A stretch of DNA of 64,000 nucleotides from a virus. Positions 8,672 through 42,887 of the stretch are shown piece by piece; the stretch's first letter is position 1; each line of letters begins with the position of its first letter. The translations under genes were made by a program, and so were the position numbers. The notes below the pieces were generated by a model that was not told the DNA's origin, made no database searches, and saw only the letters and a list, made by a program, of their open reading frames with translations. Location: the IMG/VR virus record IMGVR_UViG_3300046169_000069. The stretch is one strand, 5' to 3'.

Positions 8672-8832
8672 ATCCCCACAAGTACGGCGCCTTTTAGACA
8701 TTTTGTTTGGTGAAACTTGATATAACTCTGCTGGCATTTTTACATGCACGATTTGAGAGATCTGCAGATCTTATCAGTGCGCCCGTGCGCAAAATTCACT
8801 CTATGTCAGACTAACCGTACTCTGTGGGGGAA
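8672..8832 (-). ncRNA. Putative ~160-nt structured non-coding RNA immediately 3' of tRNA-Ala
   Basis: Terminal stem CCCCACA(G)AGUACGG/CCGUACUUGUGGGG with nested GACAU/AUGUC and GUGAA/UUCAC stems and internal hairpins. Confidence 0.6.
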
Positions 8833-8833
8833 C

Positions 8834-8909
8834 TGGTGGAGCTAGAGGGAGTCGAACCCACGACCTCTTGAATGCAAATCAAGCGCTCTCCCAACTGAGC
8901 TATAGCCCC
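8834..8909 (-). tRNA. tRNA-Ala(UGC)
   Basis: Canonical cloverleaf GGGGCTA...anticodon loop TTTGCAT...GTTCGA...CCA. Confidence 0.95.
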
Positions 8910-8918
8910 TTATTTGTC

Positions 8919-8926
8919 TATTTATA
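8919..8926 (-). promoter_or_regulatory. Late promoter TATAAATA for tRNA-Ala/ncRNA
   Basis: Exact match ~10 nt upstream of the tRNA 5' end. Confidence 0.65.
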
Positions 8927-8938
8927 CCACATTAATAT

Positions 8939-9006
8939 TGGAGCGGAGCGTAGGAACTTCCCCTACCTCAGCGAGGGGTACTCGCCGACTCAATACTGAA
9001 CTCCGC
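8939..9006 (-). ncRNA. Non-canonical tRNA-Gly(ACC)-like RNA, 68 nt
   Basis: GCGGAGU/GCUCCGC acceptor + UCCA; GGCGA/UCGCU stem with loop GUACCCC; GUAGG/CCUAC stem with loop GGAAGUU; reduced D arm. Confidence 0.65.
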
Positions 9007-9012
9007 AAAACT

Positions 9013-10431
9013 TTAGTCGCACCCAAGTTCTTGACGCGACACTTCATCGTTGTTGATAGGACAGTTGCCGCTTGGTAACGACTCTGGCACATATCGCATC
9101 AACTCTGGATCATGCAAACCGTTCTCAAGGAACGCAACAAGGTTTGCAATCTCATCTTCGGTCAAGTCTAACGGCGTGAACCGATAGTCAAGGTCATACG
9201 TCTCCACTTGTGGGTGTTGGGGAACCGCATCAACTTTATATCGCACGACATCCTCTACACTAGAGAACGACGCACCGTGACCGAATACAGTAGTATCTAT
9301 AAGGTTGTAAAGAGGCGGAACTTTGAACGCAAACTTCTCCATCTCATCACCAGTGAACCCACCACGACCTTCTCTAGTCGCATCGTTGACTTCACCTACT
9401 GTATCTTCCCAGATGTCCAGATCGTGGAAACCCACAGTCATAAACACTTCGTCAGCCATAGCACCGACAGGTGATGACAAGGCAGGACCGTTGTGACATG
9501 CATAACAGTTACCCTTACCAAAGAACACCTCTGCGCCTGCGACTTCAGATTCAGTCATCGCAGTTTCGTCACCTTTCAAGTATGCTTGGAAGGGCGCTTG
9601 GTTTGCAAGAATGGTTCGTTCGTATGCGGCGATCGCCAGTGCAGTCGCTTCTAACATATCGTCGGGTTCTGCGACACCGTACGCAGCTTCAAACATCTCA
9701 CGATAAGTTTCGTTAGTGCGCAGGATAGAATCATCTGTGTCACCCTGACGATGCACACCTAGACCCGCAACTGCTTGTGTCTCTAGACCAGCAAAGTTGC
9801 GTAGGTTTGCTTCTTTCGGAGTACCTTCTGTGAAGTGACGATCGGGATCAATACCAACATTGACATTACCCGCAATCACATTACCTAACTGACCATTCCA
9901 CAACATCACTTCTTGGAATGCCGTGTTGAGTACAGTGGGTGATGCAACAGGTTGCACATCGATGTCTTCGGGATTGATACCCTCCATCACCATGCGGTGA
10001 TCGAAACCGATACCGCCTTCACCGATACCCTGACGGATACCAGACTTGAATCCGTTCTGTGCATTGTGGCATGACGCACATGAGAACGTGCTCTCACTAG
10101 GTCCGATATCACCTTCAGTGATACCAGTTTCGTGATAAATCAACTTGCCTAGTGCGACTTTCTCTGCGGTGATCTCATTGCTGGGATCCTGCGGGATGTT
10201 GTCGAAGTCATCACTTGCGGGTAGGATGTATGCCTCGTAAGTACCTGTCGGTGACGTAGAGTCAAGTAACGTGAGTAGATTGTCACGTGCCTCGACTGCG
10301 GGGTCGACGGGTGTCGTTACGGGCGTGGATGTGACAGGATCTGCCACGACGGGCGGTGGGGTGTCAGAACCTCCACCAGAACACGCACTTAGAAGTGCAG
10401 TAGACACAGCTACAGTTAGTAGTTTCTTCAT
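9013..10431 (-). CDS. Di-haem cytochrome c peroxidase (CCP/MauG family) lipoprotein
   Basis: Lipobox LLSA-C, two CxxCH (CASCH, CYACH), LGKLIY, PTVLN, FKVPPLYN motifs. Confidence 0.88.
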   Translation of the reverse strand: MKKLLTVAVSTALLSACSGGGSDTPPPVVADPVTSTPVTTPVDPAVEARDNLLTLLDSTSPTGTYEAYILPASDDFDNIPQDPSNEITAEKVALGKLIYHETGITEGDIGPSESTFSCASCHNAQNGFKSGIRQGIGEGGIGFDHRMVMEGINPEDIDVQPVASPTVLNTAFQEVMLWNGQLGNVIAGNVNVGIDPDRHFTEGTPKEANLRNFAGLETQAVAGLGVHRQGDTDDSILRTNETYREMFEAAYGVAEPDDMLEATALAIAAYERTILANQAPFQAYLKGDETAMTESEVAGAEVFFGKGNCYACHNGPALSSPVGAMADEVFMTVGFHDLDIWEDTVGEVNDATREGRGGFTGDEMEKFAFKVPPLYNLIDTTVFGHGASFSSVEDVVRYKVDAVPQHPQVETYDLDYRFTPLDLTEDEIANLVAFLENGLHDPELMRYVPESLPSGNCPINNDEVSRQELGCD

Positions 10432-10475: not shown

Positions 10476-10505
10476 ATTATACTACAAAATATGAGGACTT
10501 GTCAA
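10476..10505 (-). promoter_or_regulatory. Sigma70-type early promoter for the peroxidase
   Basis: TTGACA-18-TATAAT. Confidence 0.75.
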
Positions 10506-10515
10506 GTGTGAATAA

Positions 10516-11202
10516 TTATCTATTTTTAACTCGTTTAGTAGCCTGACGTTCTACGTCAATCCACCGTTGCGCTTTCTTACCAACGGGTTTGTCGGTGAAT
10601 TTCTTTGCATCACGAAATGCAGTCAAAGTTTCTTTCTCGTAGTCTTTACCTTCAGAGTTATCTACGACCAAGAAGTTTACCTTACCAAACATACGTTGGA
10701 ACTTACCAATATTTCGTTGTACTGCTTTCCAGTATTCGGTAACACCTTTCTTGCCTAGTGTACGTGCACGTTTCGCATCACGGTTGATAGCAGTATCAAG
10801 GTCTGTGTTTACGAAAATCATTGCGACATCGTAACCCAAGGCTTTTACTTTCTTTGCCTGTTCAGCAATTTTATCTGGGTCTTTACCAGTACCATCTACT
10901 ACGAGACCAAGACGACCTTTCAGATATCTCTCTTCTTTCTTTCCGGTAAGTTTTTTTGCCTTACCGCGAAGTTCTTGTCCTTTTGGAGAGAAGATATTGT
11001 CCGGAGTCATATCCATATCAACCTTCTTCATTGCGGCTTCAAATGCGTCATCTGAGTTGACAACCTTGTAGCCCATAGAAGTCAGACCCGTCTTACCGAC
11101 GATGAATGACTTACCAGAACCCGGCCCACCCGCAAGAAAGATTGCCTTGAAGATTGCTGGATCATTAACGCCTTCGTCTAGGAATGTTTTAAAAGTTTTC
11201 AT
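10516..11202 (-). CDS. Zeta-toxin/AAA_33-like P-loop kinase with capsid-targeting-like N-terminus
   Basis: Walker A GGPGSGKS, VNSDD, VVDGT, lid RxxxRxR; starts MKTFKTFLDE. Confidence 0.8.
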   Translation of the reverse strand: MKTFKTFLDEGVNDPAIFKAIFLAGGPGSGKSFIVGKTGLTSMGYKVVNSDDAFEAAMKKVDMDMTPDNIFSPKGQELRGKAKKLTGKKEERYLKGRLGLVVDGTGKDPDKIAEQAKKVKALGYDVAMIFVNTDLDTAINRDAKRARTLGKKGVTEYWKAVQRNIGKFQRMFGKVNFLVVDNSEGKDYEKETLTAFRDAKKFTDKPVGKKAQRWIDVERQATKRVKNR

Positions 11203-25541: not shown

Positions 25542-26457
25542 TCTTAGCTCCAAAATCTACAAATGTAATGTTATTAACTTTTTCACGTTCATCGAGGTCA
25601 TATTGTACACGATAAGACGTGTTGATGTCAAGTACTTTTTGCAACAAATCAAAACTTATTACCCCACCATCTTCATGATCATGTGTGGAGAAATTCAGAA
25701 ACGCTCTCGTATCTTTTGGAAGACAGGCACCACCGAATCCTCGTTTACCATCAAAGCCAGGCACTCTTGTGTGACCCATCCCAACGCGGTCGTCTTTACC
25801 CACAGCGCGAACGATAGTATTGTAGTTACAACCATATAAGTTGACAAGATCATATAGTTGATTAAAGAACGTGACCTTGGTTGATAAGAAAGAGTTGATA
25901 GTATACTTAACGAATGAGGCCTCATATGCAGTCATCTTGTGATAGTCATTTGACTCACACGAACTGAAGATTTCGTAAATATCAATCGTCTCCATAATTG
26001 CAGACGGCGTACCACCAATAACATGGAAATCTGCAGAAACAAAATCTGCCTTAGCATTCTTCTCTGTGAGGAACTCTGGGTTATATGCAAATCGGTCTTT
26101 CTGCTCTTCGTTCATCGCAGAGTACAAACGATGCACCACATCTGGCGTAATAGTTGACTTGACAACGACCATAGCGTCTGTGTAGTTCAGACACTTAATG
26201 ACTGCAGTCTCAACAATAGAGGAGTTGACTGACCCATCGTCATTGGACGGAGTCGGAGCACAAATGAAAAAACACTGCGGATGATCTTCGCGATCCATCT
26301 CTTTCAGTTCTTCTACATCTGTATTGTATTTTGGATCATATAATCTAAACTGAACAATCGGATGAGTAAATGCATACTCTACAGCTTGTCCAACAAAACC
26401 GTGACCTACTATGCCCAACCGAAATATTGTCGGTTCTTTTGTTGGGTTACTCGGCAT
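25501..26457 (-). CDS. UDP-glucose/GDP-mannose 6-dehydrogenase family (lacks C-terminal domain)
   Basis: GHGFVG, ICAPTP, KSTITP, NPEFL, GFGGACLPKD. Confidence 0.9.
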   Translation of the reverse strand: MPSNPTKEPTIFRLGIVGHGFVGQAVEYAFTHPIVQFRLYDPKYNTDVEELKEMDREDHPQCFFICAPTPSNDDGSVNSSIVETAVIKCLNYTDAMVVVKSTITPDVVHRLYSAMNEEQKDRFAYNPEFLTEKNAKADFVSADFHVIGGTPSAIMETIDIYEIFSSCESNDYHKMTAYEASFVKYTINSFLSTKVTFFNQLYDLVNLYGCNYNTIVRAVGKDDRVGMGHTRVPGFDGKRGFGGACLPKDTRAFLNFSTHDHEDGGVISFDLLQKVLDINTSYRVQYDLDEREKVNNITFVDFGAKNVNNGQTEEELED

Positions 26458-27397
26458 TAGTCACCTCGTGATATTCTTTATACCATTCATAGAATTTTGC
26501 GACACCCTCTGCGATACTCACCTTCGGTTGATATCCTAACGCCTGAAGTTTCTCTGTGTTTGACCAAGTTTCTTTGGTGTCAGCGGGATGTTTTGGTGCC
26601 AAGTTCTTGTCAGCTTCTTTGCCAGTATTCTTCTCAATCTCTGAAATAAAGTCCATCAACGGGACCTGTTCGCCGCGGCCAATGTTAAAGATCTCACCGG
26701 CCGGAATATCCTTATTGTCCAAGACAATTTCAATTCCATCATTGATGTCATCCACATACGTAAAGTCGCGTTTCATATCGCCATAGTTATAAACAGTTAT
26801 TTGATTACCCGCAAGAACATTCTTAGTGAAGTCAAACAACGCCATATCCGGACGACCCCAAGGACCATAGACTGTGAAGAACCGCAGACCGACAGTATTG
26901 AGACCAGACGACTGCATCTGACACTCGTTTGCCCACTTGGTATAACCATACGCGTTCAGTTGTTTACCGTGTTCTTTACCCTCCACCCATGGCACTGGTG
27001 CGCCGGCATAGATGCAAGATGTTGATGCATACAGGATACGTGTGTCTGGCATGTGTTTTTTACAAACATCAATTAGATTCTGTGTACCGTCAATATTGTT
27101 TGCGTGATAACTCTTTTCTTTGCCTAGAGAGTCTCGCACACCTGCCATTGCAGCTAAGTGGACAATAGTGTCTGGTTGAAAGTCTCGTAAAAGAGCTTCT
27201 AGTTTGATCTCATCTCGTAGGTCACATCCCCAAATATCAAGGCCGAAGTGTACCATACGATCACGTTTTAACACGGGGCTGTATAAGTGGTTGTTAAAAT
27301 TGTCAATCCCTTTTACCACAAGTCCACGATCCATCAACCTTCTTGAAAGTTGAGAACCGATAAACCCTGCAGCGCCCGTAACTAATACTCGTTCCAT
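26447..27397 (-). CDS. NAD-dependent nucleotide-sugar epimerase (UDP-glucuronate 4-epimerase-like)
   Basis: TGAAGFIG, HLAAMAGVR, YGYTK, LRFFTVYGPWGRPDMA, RDFTYVDD. Confidence 0.9.
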   Translation of the reverse strand: MERVLVTGAAGFIGSQLSRRLMDRGLVVKGIDNFNNHLYSPVLKRDRMVHFGLDIWGCDLRDEIKLEALLRDFQPDTIVHLAAMAGVRDSLGKEKSYHANNIDGTQNLIDVCKKHMPDTRILYASTSCIYAGAPVPWVEGKEHGKQLNAYGYTKWANECQMQSSGLNTVGLRFFTVYGPWGRPDMALFDFTKNVLAGNQITVYNYGDMKRDFTYVDDINDGIEIVLDNKDIPAGEIFNIGRGEQVPLMDFISEIEKNTGKEADKNLAPKHPADTKETWSNTEKLQALGYQPKVSIAEGVAKFYEWYKEYHEVTNAE

Positions 27398-27398
27398 A

Positions 27399-28346
27399 TC
27401 AATTATTCCTGTATATAAATTCTAATGCCCTGTCCGCCTCTACGGTCAAGGGTCTATTCTCATACCAATTACCAGTCTCACTGTCAAACTCACGGCACAA
27501 ATCCGAAATCTGTTTTGCGCTGATCGGATATCCCTTAGAGTATGCATTACCTGCAATCGCAATCATAATCTTGTACATCTTGGAATACCATCCCGTTTCC
27601 GTGATCTGTTGATATTCCGCACCCAACCTACGGGGCCAGAAAGGACAGTCACGATAAGACGACCATCGGTAGTCGGTGTTATTTAGACTGTCTTTACGAT
27701 GCTGTATTATCGCCTTCTGCATCTCTGGCGGCAGTCTATCTAGGAAAGAATTCCCAGTCTTCTCGTGATAAGGATGTTTTGCAATCAACTCAGATGCGTT
27801 GAGGGCAGACCCACCTGAGTTAACAATAAAGAAACTATAAGCGTCCTTATACTGGCCTGGCGCATAGTACATACGTGCGAGGTCTTTAGTCTGTGGATCG
27901 CCCAACTCACCCAGTTCGGTGTTGAGGGCGTGCCAAAACGGTTTTATACGAGCATTCTCAATCTGTTCATCCAGACGGAATATAATGCGAAATTTAAGAT
28001 TATCTCTTCTACACCCTGCTGTATTATAAACGACATAGTCATACTGACCATACTGACGTTGCAACCAAGTTCTTAAGGACTCAGTATCACGGCAACCGTC
28101 AATAGGGTCATCCACATCAACGCAACACCAACTACTCCAATAAAGAACAGACTTGTTACTACGCGTCGTACCCACGTCGAACACAGCAGGAGTAAGAAGA
28201 GGAGAACTATTAGGACCACCTTTCTCTCCTGGCTTAGTGTAAGAATCACGAAGACACACCACGAAGTCCATCCACGACATAAACGTGGTACGACGATGTG
28301 TCTTGTTATCAAACTGGTTTTTAAAAATTGTTAGTTCGTATGTCAT
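27399..28346 (-). CDS. Archaeo-eukaryotic primase (PrimPol/VirE-N)-like protein
   Basis: VDVDD acidic motif, YNTAG, KFRIIF, DPQTKDLARMYYAP. Confidence 0.6.
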   Translation of the reverse strand: MTYELTIFKNQFDNKTHRRTTFMSWMDFVVCLRDSYTKPGEKGGPNSSPLLTPAVFDVGTTRSNKSVLYWSSWCCVDVDDPIDGCRDTESLRTWLQRQYGQYDYVVYNTAGCRRDNLKFRIIFRLDEQIENARIKPFWHALNTELGELGDPQTKDLARMYYAPGQYKDAYSFFIVNSGGSALNASELIAKHPYHEKTGNSFLDRLPPEMQKAIIQHRKDSLNNTDYRWSSYRDCPFWPRRLGAEYQQITETGWYSKMYKIMIAIAGNAYSKGYPISAKQISDLCREFDSETGNWYENRPLTVEADRALEFIYRNN

Positions 28347-29479
28347 CTTATGATGTCAATATCTTCGGGATTAGTATTCCAAGTCTCAACTGTCGTGCGT
28401 AGTCTACCTTCGGACTTAAGGGTCTCATAACGTTTAGACGCCTTGTTCTTCCACCACTCAATGATATTCTCAACTTCGAATCTGTCAAAGTTTTCTGCTG
28501 GTTTGAGTTCATCAGTTTTCAAATTCATGTAATCTTTAACCGACTGAGCCTCATGACCATATGTGCTATAATACGAACGCTTACGTTCTGTCAGACCCTT
28601 AGCATCAAGGAAGGTCTGACAGAATTTTTGATATGCAGTATCGTCCACGCCCTTGAGCGAAGACTTGATGATTGAAGCCATCTTTGTCTGTGTCTTCAGT
28701 TTACGAGATGACGCATCGGCGGGAACCAGATACTCACCCTCGTTGCGTTCCTTGAACCAGTCGTTCAGTGTTCGGAACTTGGTATCGTTGATCAACGGTG
28801 CAAAGTTACTGTCTGTCAATCCGTTGTGACGTAAGAACGGCCGCATACCATCATACATCGATGATGACTTAGAGGAACCATACAAACTAGTTGTTTCGAA
28901 AAGACATATGTTTGCATCGTACTTTTTGTTTAACGCACGACGCACTAGATGCGAACAACAAATGCCCGCCAACAGTTTACCACCAAGGTAGTTATATCCT
29001 ACGGGCTGGACAGGAACAATATTAAAACCCATTATAGCAGACTTGTTAAATCTTTTCATAACATCTGGATTCATGGTGTCAAGAGGCGCACCCAACCATT
29101 CGTTACGTGGACGCGAATTAATCGTAGGTGACCCAAAACGGATCATCCCAAATACTTGACCAGTGTTCTTCTCTTTGACGATGTAGAGAAGTTGTTTGCC
29201 TGGGATCGACGACTCGACTGGCGCGGATGTCGTGATCTCCATATATGTCATGAAGTGATCCTGACGACACTCGTATATTGAGAATTCCATGTCGTTGGGA
29301 TGAATAGAGAAGTCGTCAAACAAATCTGTCTCTGGGCCCATGCCAGGCAGAGATGCTGGAAAGGTTGCCATACGATCCATTTTGATAGAACGTTGGTATT
29401 CGTCGATGCGATCGAAACTGCCAAAGAAATCAGAAAAGACATTCGCCGCATGGATTGCGTCTTGCTTAGATAGAATCAT
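28343..29479 (-). CDS. DUF4338/DruA-like protein, probable Mom-like GNAT fold
   Basis: PGKQL...RNEWLG...VQPVGYNYLGGKLLA...ETTSLYG...SMYDG; family recalled from memory. Confidence 0.6.
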   Translation of the reverse strand: MILSKQDAIHAANVFSDFFGSFDRIDEYQRSIKMDRMATFPASLPGMGPETDLFDDFSIHPNDMEFSIYECRQDHFMTYMEITTSAPVESSIPGKQLLYIVKEKNTGQVFGMIRFGSPTINSRPRNEWLGAPLDTMNPDVMKRFNKSAIMGFNIVPVQPVGYNYLGGKLLAGICCSHLVRRALNKKYDANICLFETTSLYGSSKSSSMYDGMRPFLRHNGLTDSNFAPLINDTKFRTLNDWFKERNEGEYLVPADASSRKLKTQTKMASIIKSSLKGVDDTAYQKFCQTFLDAKGLTERKRSYYSTYGHEAQSVKDYMNLKTDELKPAENFDRFEVENIIEWWKNKASKRYETLKSEGRLRTTVETWNTNPEDIDIIR

Positions 29480-42828: not shown

Positions 42829-42887
42829 AAGGACTCAACTCAACTTATATGGAGATCATTATACTACAAATAAGGGGGTGTGTCAAG

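What the first reader, a model, noticed from the sequence alone, without database searches (positions are those of the whole stretch)
8939..9006. Non-canonical 68-nt tRNA-Gly(ACC)-like RNA: Gly identity kept, ribosomal features lost
Seen: GCGGAGU-UCAGUAUUGAGUC-GGCGA-GUACCCC-UCGCU-GAG-GUAGG-GGAAGUU-CCUAC-GCUCCGC-UCCA. Three stems and the CCA end are intact, and the GlyRS identity set (G1-C72, C2-G71, G3-C70, U73, C35-C36) plus U33 is present. The D-loop GG, T-loop UUCG and purine-37 are missing, and ACC is not a normal bacterial Gly anticodon. Stems preserved with loops rewritten looks more like selection than decay. Established: staphylococcal non-proteinogenic tRNA-Gly species lack GG/TPsiC and feed Fem transferases. 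Inference: this is a dedicated glycyl donor for a non-ribosomal transferase, or a decoy for anticodon nucleases or uncharged-tRNA sensors. It starts 6 nt after the peroxidase stop, so it is probably early-expressed.
Basis: partly seen in the sequence, partly recalled or inferred. Interest (0 to 1): 0.8.

Follow-up and report, generated by a model that had tools for sequence, protein, structure and literature searches.

The report
Phage miniature glycine tRNA, non-ribosomal type
The 68-base element is a real, conserved, phage-only miniature glycine tRNA that looks loadable with glycine but unfit for the ribosome, and it most likely hands glycine to a Mom-like enzyme that the same phage encodes 19 kb away, not to protein synthesis.

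Summary
ARAGORN and Rfam both miss the element.

It is not a decayed gene. It belongs to a large virus-specific family of 65-70-nt tRNA-Gly-like RNAs. The family has:
- a 7-bp acceptor stem
- a 3-bp mini D helix
- a long anticodon helix with loop GUNCCCC
- a T loop without U55
- an encoded U73-CCA

All four helices covary. A model built from the family scores the window copy at 75 bits.

In relatives the element sits beside canonical tRNA-Gly genes. Some copies have their own promoter and terminator. Position 34 varies freely.

In other phages the RNA abuts Mom, a known Gly-tRNA-dependent DNA modifier. In others it lies 20-62 nt after a DruA-family (DUF4338) gene.

This phage has no Mom. It does encode a DruA-family protein at 28343-29479. 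That protein's model has a GNAT fold, and its top structural matches are Mom and FemA. The complete relative C48C1 lacks both the RNA and the enzyme.

Earlier agents in this scan reported the same RNA-DruA pairing on other DNA.

The parts
8939..9006 (-). Miniature tRNA-Gly-like RNA gene, 68 nt. RNA position i corresponds to window coordinate 9007-i. Layout: acceptor 1-7/58-64; mini D helix 8-10/15-17; anticodon helix 19-25/33-39; loop 26-32 GUACCCC; anticodon ACC at 8977-8979; T stem 41-45/53-57; T loop GGAAGUU; U65 as discriminator; CCA 66-68.
   Evidence: Sequence. Fold. Family model R1 scores it 75.3 bits, E 2e-15, over the full length. Covariation of all four helices.
9007..9012 (-). Short 5' leader (AGUUUU) between the peroxidase stop codon and G1. 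Related leaders of the form AAGTTTAWY precede family members that lie in other genomic slots.
   Evidence: Flank comparison. The 84-nt indel relative to phage C48C1 starts right after the stop codon.
9013..10431 (-). Upstream gene, probably co-transcribed with the RNA: a di-haem cytochrome c peroxidase (CCP_MauG) with a lipoprotein-like N-terminus.
   Evidence: Pfam PF03150, E 5e-23. No terminator-like site lies between this gene and the RNA.
10476..10505 (-). Sigma-70-type promoter, TTGACA-18-TATAAT (12/12 match). It probably drives the peroxidase gene and the RNA early in infection.
   Evidence: Consensus scan. This is a consensus match only; no transcript data.
8834..8926 (-). Downstream context: a T4-late-promoter-like TATAAATA at 8919-8926, then canonical tRNA-Ala(UGC) at 8834-8909.
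   Evidence: This block is conserved in relatives that lack the element.
28343..29479 (-). Candidate partner enzyme: a DruA-family (DUF4338, phrog_19197) protein of 378 aa with a predicted GNAT fold.
   Evidence: Pfam PF14236, 38 bits against a cut-off of 27. PADLOC DruA and phrog_19197 matches. AF2 model with mean pLDDT 74. Best structural matches are Mu Mom (Z 10.4) and FemA (Z 9.9) among 48,161 chains. The gene is absent from C48C1, which also lacks the RNA.
42830..42857 (.). Empty second slot between the gp55 late sigma factor gene and the gp47/SbcD gene. The nearest genome, G001, holds a second family member here behind an early promoter. The window and C48C1 do not.
   Evidence: R1 hit at L432:824-892, 72.7 bits. 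Genome alignment. Three-way alignment showing a clean indel of about 80 nt.

Best explanation
The element is an expressed gene for a miniature, non-proteinogenic tRNA-Gly.

Proposed mechanism (inferred):
1. It is transcribed early, together with the upstream peroxidase gene.
2. RNase P and 3' trimming release it from that transcript. The CCA end is encoded.
3. The host glycyl-tRNA synthetase charges it, because it keeps the full Gly identity set.
4. It stays out of translation. It has no D/T-loop elbow and no U55. It has a pyrimidine at position 37, an extra G32-C38 pair, and a free-floating base at position 34.
5. It then acts as a private carrier of activated glycine for the phage's DruA-family GNAT enzyme (window 28343-29479).
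6. That enzyme resembles Mom of phage Mu. It probably transfers the glycyl group to DNA, or to another non-protein target, as a counter-defence modification.

Shown here:
- family membership
- structural conservation
- virus specificity
- genetic linkage of the family to Mom and to DruA-type genes
- the GNAT fold of the window's DruA-like protein

Inferred only:
- charging by GlyRS
- exclusion from the ribosome
- the transfer reaction and its target
For: 1. Real RNA family.
- Pattern scans found dozens of distinct 65-70-nt relatives in viral contigs.
- 93% of stem cells pair, against 62% when shuffled and about 43% when slid.
- 17 of 22 pairs change on both sides.
- The 3-bp D helix, which I did not select for, is 91.5% paired.
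- Model R1 scores the window copy at 75 bits. Canonical tRNA-Gly genes score 28-33 bits.

2. Virus-specific.
- 31 of 104 pattern matches in viral contigs pass the structure filter.
- Only 1 of 124 does so in 596 Gb of bacterial genomes, and that one belongs to the same subfamily as the proviral copy L101.

3. Not a relic.
- In L089 and L140 the same slot holds the element and a canonical tRNA-Gly(GCC) in tandem.
- In phages with large tRNA arrays it lies 3-8 nt from canonical tRNA-Gly(UCC).
- Other copies have their own TTGACA/TATAAT promoter and/or a terminator.

4. Non-decoding signature.
- N34 is A 15, U 9, G 6, C 1, and it flips between close relatives.
- G55 occurs in 27 of 31 sequences.
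- Pair 51-63 is never G-C.
- The family shares three features with staphylococcal non-proteogenic tRNA-Gly: no G18G19, no U55 and an extra 32-38 pair (PMC7826273; PMC13443448).

5. Partner enzymes.
- Mom (PF25680) occurs in 9 of 49 element-bearing records, and there it abuts the RNA.
- DruA-like (PF14236) occurs in 17 of 46 further records, and in 3 of 4 that are near-complete.
- It occurs in 0 of 25 true control contigs.
- The DruA-like stop codon lies 20-62 nt upstream of the RNA in 6 contigs from at least 4 RNA subfamilies.
- Starting instead from 80 DruA-like genes, 11 of the 12 tRNA genes ARAGORN finds within 3 kb are tRNA-Gly. Four of these have ACC, and all are on the gene's strand.

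6. This phage.
- The DruA-like gene is present.
- The complete relative C48C1 lacks both the RNA and the gene.
- The model has a GNAT fold with Mom (Z 10.4, 172 residues aligned) and FemA (Z 9.9) as top hits.
- An ortholog in GenBank PQ898602.1 is annotated 'methylcarbamoylase mom'.

7. Mom does use Gly-tRNAGly to modify adenine in dsDNA (PMC13219725).
Against: - No transcript, aminoacylation or transfer data exist.
- In this window the RNA and the DruA-like gene are 19 kb apart, not adjacent.
- Four cultured phages with DruA-like genes showed no family member. Their 6-kb DruA-like neighbourhoods were searched directly. Their whole records were searched only with a pre-filter that may be insensitive. 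So the enzyme, if tRNA-dependent, can do without a private RNA.
- One near-complete provirus (G041) has the RNA but neither Mom nor a DruA-like gene.
- The Z-scores for Mom and FemA are within 1 unit of generic GNATs, so a specific Mom relationship is not established.
- Profile-profile comparison of DruA-like and Mom proteins found nothing significant.
- The co-occurrence counts are not corrected for shared ancestry.
- Loop GUNCCCC and acceptor GCGG/CCGC were fixed by my search pattern. Their conservation within that set is therefore not evidence.
Confidence: 0.6

Rival explanations
1. It is a minimalist but working decoder. On this reading it is a stripped-down tRNA-Gly that supplies glycine codons during infection. 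Its rewritten anticodon loop might let it escape host tRNA-cleaving defences.
For: - It keeps a 7-nt loop with U33 and a Gly anticodon, and it lies in tRNA arrays.
- The window's phage and G001 have no canonical tRNA-Gly of their own.
- D-arm-reduced tRNAs do decode in animal mitochondria (established knowledge).
Against: - Where tRNA arrays are present it comes in addition to canonical tRNA-Gly(UCC) and tRNA-Gly(GCC).
- N34 drifts among all four bases between close relatives.
- C37 and a Watson-Crick 32-38 pair are almost unknown in decoders, but they are typical of the non-ribosomal staphylococcal species.
- ACC is not a cellular Gly anticodon.
- The family is linked specifically to GNAT genes.
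Confidence: 0.14
2. It is a decoy or sponge. On this reading it mimics tRNA-Gly to soak up a host factor. Candidates are a tRNA-directed nuclease, a GNAT toxin that acetylates Gly-tRNAGly, GlyRS itself, or an uncharged-tRNA sensor.
For: - It keeps the acceptor end and the C35-C36 features that such factors could read.
- It is probably expressed early.
- Phage tRNAs that neutralise defences are known for other identities (from my own knowledge; not checked here).
Against: - Its anticodon loop differs from host-type tRNA-Gly loops, which makes it a poor bait for an anticodon nuclease.
- A decoy role does not explain the recurrent placement 0-62 nt after Mom or DruA-like genes.
- It does not explain the joint absence of the RNA and the enzyme in C48C1.
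Confidence: 0.1
3. It is a tRNA-shaped processing or stability signal for the peroxidase transcript. It would act as an RNase P punctuation mark or a 3'-end protector and have no role as a free RNA.
For: - It begins 6 nt after the stop codon of the upstream gene, with no promoter of its own in this window.
- It behaves as an 80-84-nt cassette that appears in several intergenic slots.
Against: - Other family members are stand-alone units with a promoter and a terminator and no upstream gene.
- Strict retention of the Gly identity set and an encoded CCA is not needed for punctuation.
- This role does not explain the link to tRNA-Gly genes and to GNAT genes.
Confidence: 0.08
4. It is a decaying pseudogene of the tRNA-Gly(GCC) that occupies the same slot in more distant relatives.
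For: - L029-L031 have a canonical 76-nt tRNA-Gly(GCC) at exactly this slot.
- tRNA finders reject the element.
- The close relative C48C1 has lost it.
Against: - All 17 core stem pairs are intact.
- The stems differ from those of relatives by compensated changes.
- The element and the canonical gene coexist in tandem in L089 and L140.
- The window lineage kept the odd gene and lost the canonical one.
- Its closest relative (L123) lies at a different locus, yet has an identical T arm and covarying stems.
Confidence: 0.03

Closest known systems
Staphylococcal non-proteogenic tRNA-Gly (NP1-NP3; S. epidermidis Ia/Ib), the glycyl donors for FmhB/FemA/FemB
   Same: - Keeps the GlyRS identity set.
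- Lacks G18-G19 and U55. Most family members have UGC/UGA in place of UUC in the T loop.
[quoted passage not shown]
- NP3 also has a 3-bp D stem.
- The presumed role is the same: to deliver glycine to a GNAT-fold transferase, not to the ribosome (PMC7826273, PMC13443448).
   Different: - The staphylococcal species are 75-nt cloverleaves with a full D arm. They are chromosomal and restricted to staphylococci. They feed peptidoglycan synthesis.
- This RNA is 68 nt with a 3-bp D helix set directly against the acceptor stem. It has C37 and anticodon ACC, and it is phage-borne.
- No Fem-type gene is present (PF13480 and PF00583 negative).
tRNA-Gly-like 'pseudo-tRNA' embedded in mom homologues (Dehalococcoides ssrA islands, McMurdie 2011, PMC3146451), with Mu Mom as a Gly-tRNAGly-dependent adenine modifier (Silva 2026, PMC13219725)
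   Same: - A Gly-type tRNA look-alike physically coupled to a GNAT enzyme that uses charged tRNA-Gly.
- Nine records in my set show the same family abutting or overlapping the 3' end of mom.
   Different: - This phage has no Mom.
- The published case is a 76-bp element inside the first 150 bp of the gene in a bacterial island.
- No paper I found links such RNAs to the enzyme's chemistry.
DruA (DUF4338) of the Druantia type I defence system, and the 'DruA-like' proteins noted in six Synechococcus phages (Phold preprint 10.1101/2025.08.05.668817)
   Same: The window's 378-aa protein matches Pfam PF14236 and the PADLOC DruA models. It is 44-56% identical to proteins of S-SSM7, S-PRM1, S-CAM9, HTVC008M and other isolates.
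   Different: - Neither DruA nor the phage proteins has a known function (phrog_19197 is 'unknown function').
- The link to tRNA-Gly genes is not in the papers I searched.
D-arm-lacking mitochondrial tRNAs (for example metazoan tRNA-Ser AGY)
   Same: A shortened D region, loss of the D/T-loop elbow, and overall miniaturisation.
   Different: Those RNAs are decoders served by adapted EF-Tu and ribosomes. Here canonical tRNA-Gly genes coexist with the RNA, and the anticodon-loop features argue against decoding.

Membership tests
Canonical bacterial/phage tRNA (Rfam RF00005) | Detected by tRNA covariance and heuristic models | tested here: not met
   No RF00005 match even at E<=10. ARAGORN is negative in all modes tried.
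Canonical bacterial/phage tRNA (Rfam RF00005) | A 4-bp D stem with G18G19, T loop U54-U55-C56, and a purine at position 37 | tested here: not met
   The sequence has a 3-bp D helix with loop GUAU, T loop GGAAGUU, and C37.
tRNA-Gly identity (substrate of bacterial GlyRS) | G1-C72, C2-G71, G3-C70, U73, C35, C36 | tested here: met
   All are present in the sequence. The determinants are listed in PMC7826273.
tRNA-Gly identity (substrate of bacterial GlyRS) | Actual glycylation | not testable with these tools
   Needs an in vitro charging assay.
Phage miniature tRNA-Gly-like RNA family (model R1, defined here) | Full-length match to the family covariance model: 7-bp acceptor, 3-bp D helix, extended anticodon helix, 5-bp T stem, U73-CCA | tested here: met
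   75.3 bits, E 2e-15, model positions 1-68. The window sequence was in the seed. Relatives outside the seed score 52-73 bits.
Phage miniature tRNA-Gly-like RNA family (model R1, defined here) | Helices supported by compensatory change | tested here: met
   17 of 22 pairs change on both sides. Covariation score is 0.756 against 0.19 in shuffles (0/500 reach it). Caveat: three of the helices were used in my selection filter. The D helix and the stem extension were not.
Staphylococcal non-proteogenic tRNA-Gly | No G18G19, no U55, extra 32-38 pair | tested here: met
   Sequence, compared with PMC13443448.
Staphylococcal non-proteogenic tRNA-Gly | Belongs to the staphylococcal lineage and serves Fem transferases | tested here: not met
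   The gene is phage-borne. No FemAB-like PF13480 or GNAT PF00583 match in G001, G002, G046, G041 or G037. PF02388 itself was not searched. It works like this family but is not a member.
Mom-coupled tRNA-Gly look-alikes | A mom gene (PF25680) adjacent to the RNA or in the same genome | tested here: not met
   None in G001 (93% complete) or G002. A custom Mom profile against all ORFs of G001 and the window gave only noise.
DruA-family GNAT plus private tRNA-Gly module | A DruA-family gene in the same genome | tested here: met
   Window 28343-29479 matches PF14236 at 38 bits, above the cut-off.
DruA-family GNAT plus private tRNA-Gly module | RNA gene directly downstream of the enzyme gene | tested here: not met
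   The two are 19 kb apart in this window. In six other contigs the gap is 20-62 nt.
DruA-family GNAT plus private tRNA-Gly module | RNA and enzyme gene are gained and lost together | tested here: inconclusive
   Both are present in the window, G001, G002 and G046, and both are absent in complete C48C1. However, four isolates have the enzyme with no family member found, and G041 has the RNA without the enzyme.
DruA-family GNAT plus private tRNA-Gly module | The enzyme is a Gly-tRNA-dependent transferase | not testable with these tools
   Only the fold is known. It is GNAT, with Mom (Z 10.4) and FemA (Z 9.9) ranked first but tied with generic GNATs.

The most novel reading that the evidence does not exclude
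DruA-family (DUF4338) proteins are aminoacyl-tRNA-dependent glycyl transferases, a second Mom-like class. Many aquatic T4-like phages supply them with a purpose-built, ribosome-excluded mini tRNA-Gly so they can hypermodify their DNA, or another target, without draining the translational Gly-tRNA pool. By extension, DruA of the Druantia type I defence system would also act through charged tRNA.
Probability: 0.4. Interest if true: 0.9.

Novelty: new variant of a known kind. Interest (0 to 1): 0.75.

Why it matters
- **Hidden RNA genes.** Standard tRNA finders and Rfam miss this family entirely. A widespread class of phage RNA genes is therefore absent from annotations.
- **A second dedicated non-ribosomal tRNA.** If the proposed role holds, this would be the second natural case, after staphylococcal cell-wall tRNA-Gly, of a tRNA built only to feed a non-ribosomal transferase. 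It would be the first such case carried by viruses.
- **A testable function for DruA.** The DruA/DUF4338 family is abundant in marine cyanophages and pelagiphages, with at least 599 matching stretches in IMG/VR. It is also a component of the Druantia defence system, and its function is unknown. This work gives it a concrete biochemical hypothesis to test.
- **Possible new DNA modification.** It points to a tRNA-dependent modification, possibly of DNA, in ecologically dominant phages.

Tried and rejected
- **Rfam at E<=10 and ARAGORN in relaxed and mitochondrial modes.** No call.
- **BLAST of the element, and of the 72-nt variant, against 50,697 phage records.** No relatives among isolates.
- **BLAST with array fragments.** Only canonical tRNA-Gly matched.
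- **All-against-all clustering of ORFs within 4 kb of the element.** No cluster was shared by more than 6 of 31 loci. This step missed the DruA-like link because the proteins are too divergent for my BLAST threshold.
- **Pfam on the cluster representatives.** It gave ordinary T4 replication genes and one HD_4 ORF.
- **Mom in this phage.** Absent.
- **GNAT PF00583 and FemAB-like PF13480 in five large element-bearing records.** None found.
- **hhalign of DruA-like against Mom alignments.** Probability 0.25%, so no detectable sequence homology.
- **Profile of DruA-like proteins against PDB sequences.** No hit.
- **Foldseek against PDB.** Only GNAT-superfamily folds (acetyl- and acyltransferases, malonyl-CoA decarboxylase, p300/CBP), all above E 1e-3.
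- **The genome search with R1 on GenBank records.** It reported zero or one first-look candidates per record, which looks insensitive. I therefore re-ran cmsearch directly on the whole C48C1 genome. The four isolates were checked directly only in the 6 kb around their DruA-like gene.
- **My intended negative control, contigs with a 72-nt tRNA-Gly(UCC).** It turned out to be positive for DruA-like genes in 20 of 25. I reclassified it as another DruA-linked Gly variant.

Full report
**1. The observation**

- It has a 7-bp acceptor stem, a 5-bp anticodon stem, a 5-bp T stem and an encoded U73-CCA.
- The anticodon loop is GUACCCC.
- The T loop is GGAAGUU.
- There is no GG-containing D loop.

The minimum-energy fold is a four-way junction of -30.2 kcal/mol with z = -2.9. 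It contains a 3-bp helix (UCA/UGA) in place of the D arm. It also extends the anticodon helix to 8 bp.

ARAGORN finds eight canonical tRNAs in the window but not this element, in any mode. The Rfam tRNA model does not match it even at E<=10.

The same 68 nt occur in independent metagenome contigs. An assembly artefact is therefore excluded.

**2. Local context**

The element lies 6 nt after the stop codon of a di-haem cytochrome c peroxidase gene. It lies 12 nt before a TATAAATA motif that precedes tRNA-Ala.

A perfect sigma-70-type promoter precedes the peroxidase gene. No terminator-like site intervenes.

The nearest GenBank phage, C48C1 (Kyanoviridae), lacks an 84-nt block exactly at this position.

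Among 25 contigs that carry the same peroxidase gene, the slot takes several forms:
- empty;
- filled by a small ORF;
- filled by the element;
- filled by a canonical 76-nt tRNA-Gly(GCC), in L029-L031.

In L089 and L140 the peroxidase is 68% identical to the window's. There the slot holds the odd element followed 5 nt later by a canonical tRNA-Gly(GCC). The element is therefore a separate gene related to tRNA-Gly. It is not the worn-out remnant of the canonical one.

**3. A family**

I ran three scans of IMG/VR.
- A scan with the window's acceptor stem found shorter relatives with the same architecture.
- A scan that fixed only GCGG, GUNCCCC and CCGCUCCA returned more than 118 stretches. Of 104 distinct sequences, 31 pass a stem filter.
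- A scan that fixed the acceptor and a GGUG-type T loop, leaving the anticodon loop free, found the same RNAs. It also found a sister group with loop UGUCCAA.

The first pattern run on 596 Gb of bacterial genomes gave 124 matches. Only one passes the filter, and it belongs to the same subfamily as the proviral copy L101.

On a 33-sequence alignment:
- 93% of stem cells pair, against 62% when shuffled and about 43% when slid.
- 17 of 22 pairs change on both sides.
- The 3-bp D helix, which played no part in my selection, is 91.5% paired, with all three pairs covarying.

A covariance model (R1) scores the window element at 75.3 bits. Canonical tRNA-Gly genes score only 28-33 bits.

Caveat: the acceptor GCGG/CCGC and the loop letters were fixed by the search patterns. 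They carry no evidential weight within that set.

**4. Signs of expression and of a non-decoding role**

Expression signals in other lineages:
- a TTGACA-17-TATAAT promoter about 30 nt upstream (L144, L151, L192);
- a promoter plus an intrinsic terminator (L118, L173, L083);
- a terminator directly downstream (L106, L111, L060, L065, L104).

In phages with large tRNA arrays the element lies a few nucleotides from canonical tRNA-Gly(UCC) and/or tRNA-Gly(GCC). It is therefore a third Gly species, not a replacement.

Sequence features:
- Position 34 is A, U, G or C and flips between close relatives.
- Position 55 is G in 27 of 31 sequences.
- Pair 51-63 is never G-C.

The staphylococcal non-proteogenic tRNA-Gly species feed Fem transferases and are excluded from EF-Tu. 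Two papers describe them as lacking G18-G19 and U55, having TGC/TGT in the T loop, and carrying an extra 32-38 pair. One of the three has a 3-bp D stem (PMC7826273; PMC13443448). The phage family shows the same set of departures and takes them further.

**5. Which enzyme?**

*The Mom lead.* Earlier notes from this scan suggested a link between deformed tRNA-Gly(ACC) genes and Mom. I tested it.
- Mom of phage Mu transfers glycine from Gly-tRNAGly to N6 of adenine in dsDNA (PMC13219725).
- PF25680 is present in 9 of 49 records that carry the family, and there the RNA abuts or overlaps the 3' end of mom.
- A 2011 paper had noted a tRNA-Gly-like "pseudo-tRNA" inside mom homologues of Dehalococcoides islands (PMC3146451).
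- The window's phage has no Mom. Neither Pfam nor a custom profile finds one.
- It also has no generic or Fem-like GNAT match.

*Gene-content comparison.* I compared G001 with the complete genome of C48C1. G001 is the nearest genome and is about 96% identical to the window where the two align. C48C1 has no R1 match at E<=1. Only two ORFs are shared by G001, G002 and the window yet absent from C48C1:
- a kinase-like ORF next to the peroxidase gene;
- a 378-aa protein that matches Pfam DruA/DUF4338.

*Counts for DruA-like genes.*
- Present in 17 of 46 further element-bearing records, most of which are small fragments.
- Present in 3 of 4 near-complete element-bearing records.
- Absent from C48C1.
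- Absent from 25 true control contigs.
- Present in 20 of 25 contigs I had meant as controls. These carry a 72-nt tRNA-Gly(UCC) with G33 and no GG in the D loop, so they proved to be another linked Gly variant.

*Adjacency.* In six contigs from at least four RNA subfamilies, the DruA-like stop codon lies 20-62 nt upstream of the RNA on the same strand.

*The reverse test.* I started from the 80 closest DruA-like genes in IMG/VR, where at least 599 stretches encode relatives.
- ARAGORN finds 12 tRNA genes within 3 kb.
- Eleven are tRNA-Gly (7 UCC, 4 ACC), and all lie on the gene's strand.
- R1 adds two Gly-like genes that ARAGORN misses.

**6. The enzyme's fold**

An AlphaFold2 model of the window's protein has mean pLDDT 74 and a GNAT core.

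Foldseek lists only GNAT-superfamily folds, all weakly.

An exhaustive structural alignment against 48,161 PDB representatives gives this ranking:
- first: Mu Mom, Z 10.4, rmsd 3.7 A, 172 of 202 residues aligned;
- second: S. aureus FemA, Z 9.9;
- then generic GNATs, Z 9.6 and below.

The two top hits are the two known glycyl-tRNA-dependent GNAT transferases. However, the margin is under one Z unit, and sequence profiles show no homology to Mom. Only the GNAT fold is firm.

Orthologs in cultured phages:
- They include S-SSM7, S-PRM1, S-CAM9, S-T4, S-SM2 and HTVC008M.
- The gene lies inside the replication module, between gp44 and gp62 or next to DNA polymerase.
- One GenBank record annotates the protein "methylcarbamoylase mom".
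- I looked for the mini-tRNA in four of these isolates and found none. The 6 kb around each DruA-like gene was searched directly. The whole records were searched only with a pre-filter that may be insensitive.

The enzyme can therefore probably use host tRNA-Gly, as Mu Mom does.

**7. Dynamics**

G001 carries a second family member between the gp55 and gp47 genes, behind an early promoter. The window and C48C1 have the promoter but not the RNA. The difference is a clean indel of about 80 nt.

Copies in different slots share a short 5' leader, AAGTTTAWY.

The RNA thus behaves as a small cassette that is gained and lost between near-identical genomes.

**8. Verdict**

The best explanation is a private, ribosome-excluded glycyl carrier for the phage's DruA-family GNAT. 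The likely purpose is a Mom-like modification. I put confidence in this at about 0.6.

Still untested: charging, exclusion from translation, and the transfer reaction with its target.

Rival readings, in order of likelihood:
- a minimalist decoder;
- a decoy;
- a processing signal;
- a pseudogene.

After I reached the DruA link on my own, I found that other agents in this scan had reported the same RNA-DruA pairing on other genomes. That agrees with my result, but it is not independent proof. I found no paper that describes the pairing.

Noticed in passing
window 10516-11202 (-): A 228-aa Zeta_toxin/AAA_33 kinase-like ORF lies just upstream of the peroxidase gene. It has weak PHROG matches to polynucleotide kinase. 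It shares the RNA's distribution across the four genomes compared: present in the window, G001 and G002, absent from C48C1.
   Followed up: partly
window 8672-8832 (-): The stretch just after tRNA-Ala is conserved between the window and C48C1 (alignment). Another first-stage note flags it as a structured RNA of about 160 nt fused behind tRNA-Ala.
   Followed up: no
window 9013-10431 (-): A phage-encoded di-haem cytochrome c peroxidase whose N-terminus looks like a lipoprotein signal (LSAC lipobox). The same neighbourhood also encodes isocitrate lyase, AhpC/peroxiredoxin and an N6/N4 DNA methyltransferase.
   Followed up: no
L032-L074 (for example L044:2503-2574): A widespread 72-nt phage tRNA-Gly(UCC) with the same acceptor stem as the window element. 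Its anticodon loop is UGUCCAA (G at position 33) and its D loop has no GG. In 20 of 25 contigs a 376-aa DruA-like gene lies about 1 kb upstream.
   Followed up: partly
L321, L331, L349, L381, L333 and others: A sister group of 65-70-nt Gly-like RNAs. They have the same mini D helix and UGC-type T loop but the loop UGUCCAA or GCUCCAA. They also lie beside canonical tRNA-Gly genes in arrays.
   Followed up: partly
L104:2912-3484, L060, L065: In one lineage the 3' end of an HD_4 (RelA/SpoT-type HD) ORF overlaps the first 24 nt of the RNA gene.
   Followed up: no
window 26447-28346 (-): In this phage the DruA-like gene sits in a block with a sugar-nucleotide epimerase/dehydratase gene and ORFs of unknown function. 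This differs from the gp44-gp62 position it has in cultured cyanophages. Glycosyltransferase genes that G001 has and C48C1 lacks also exist elsewhere in the genome.
   Followed up: no
L422 (G015) 2-694 and L153:583-649: In Mom-linked members the mom reading frame runs through the whole tRNA-like gene. The last codons of mom therefore also encode the RNA.
   Followed up: partly
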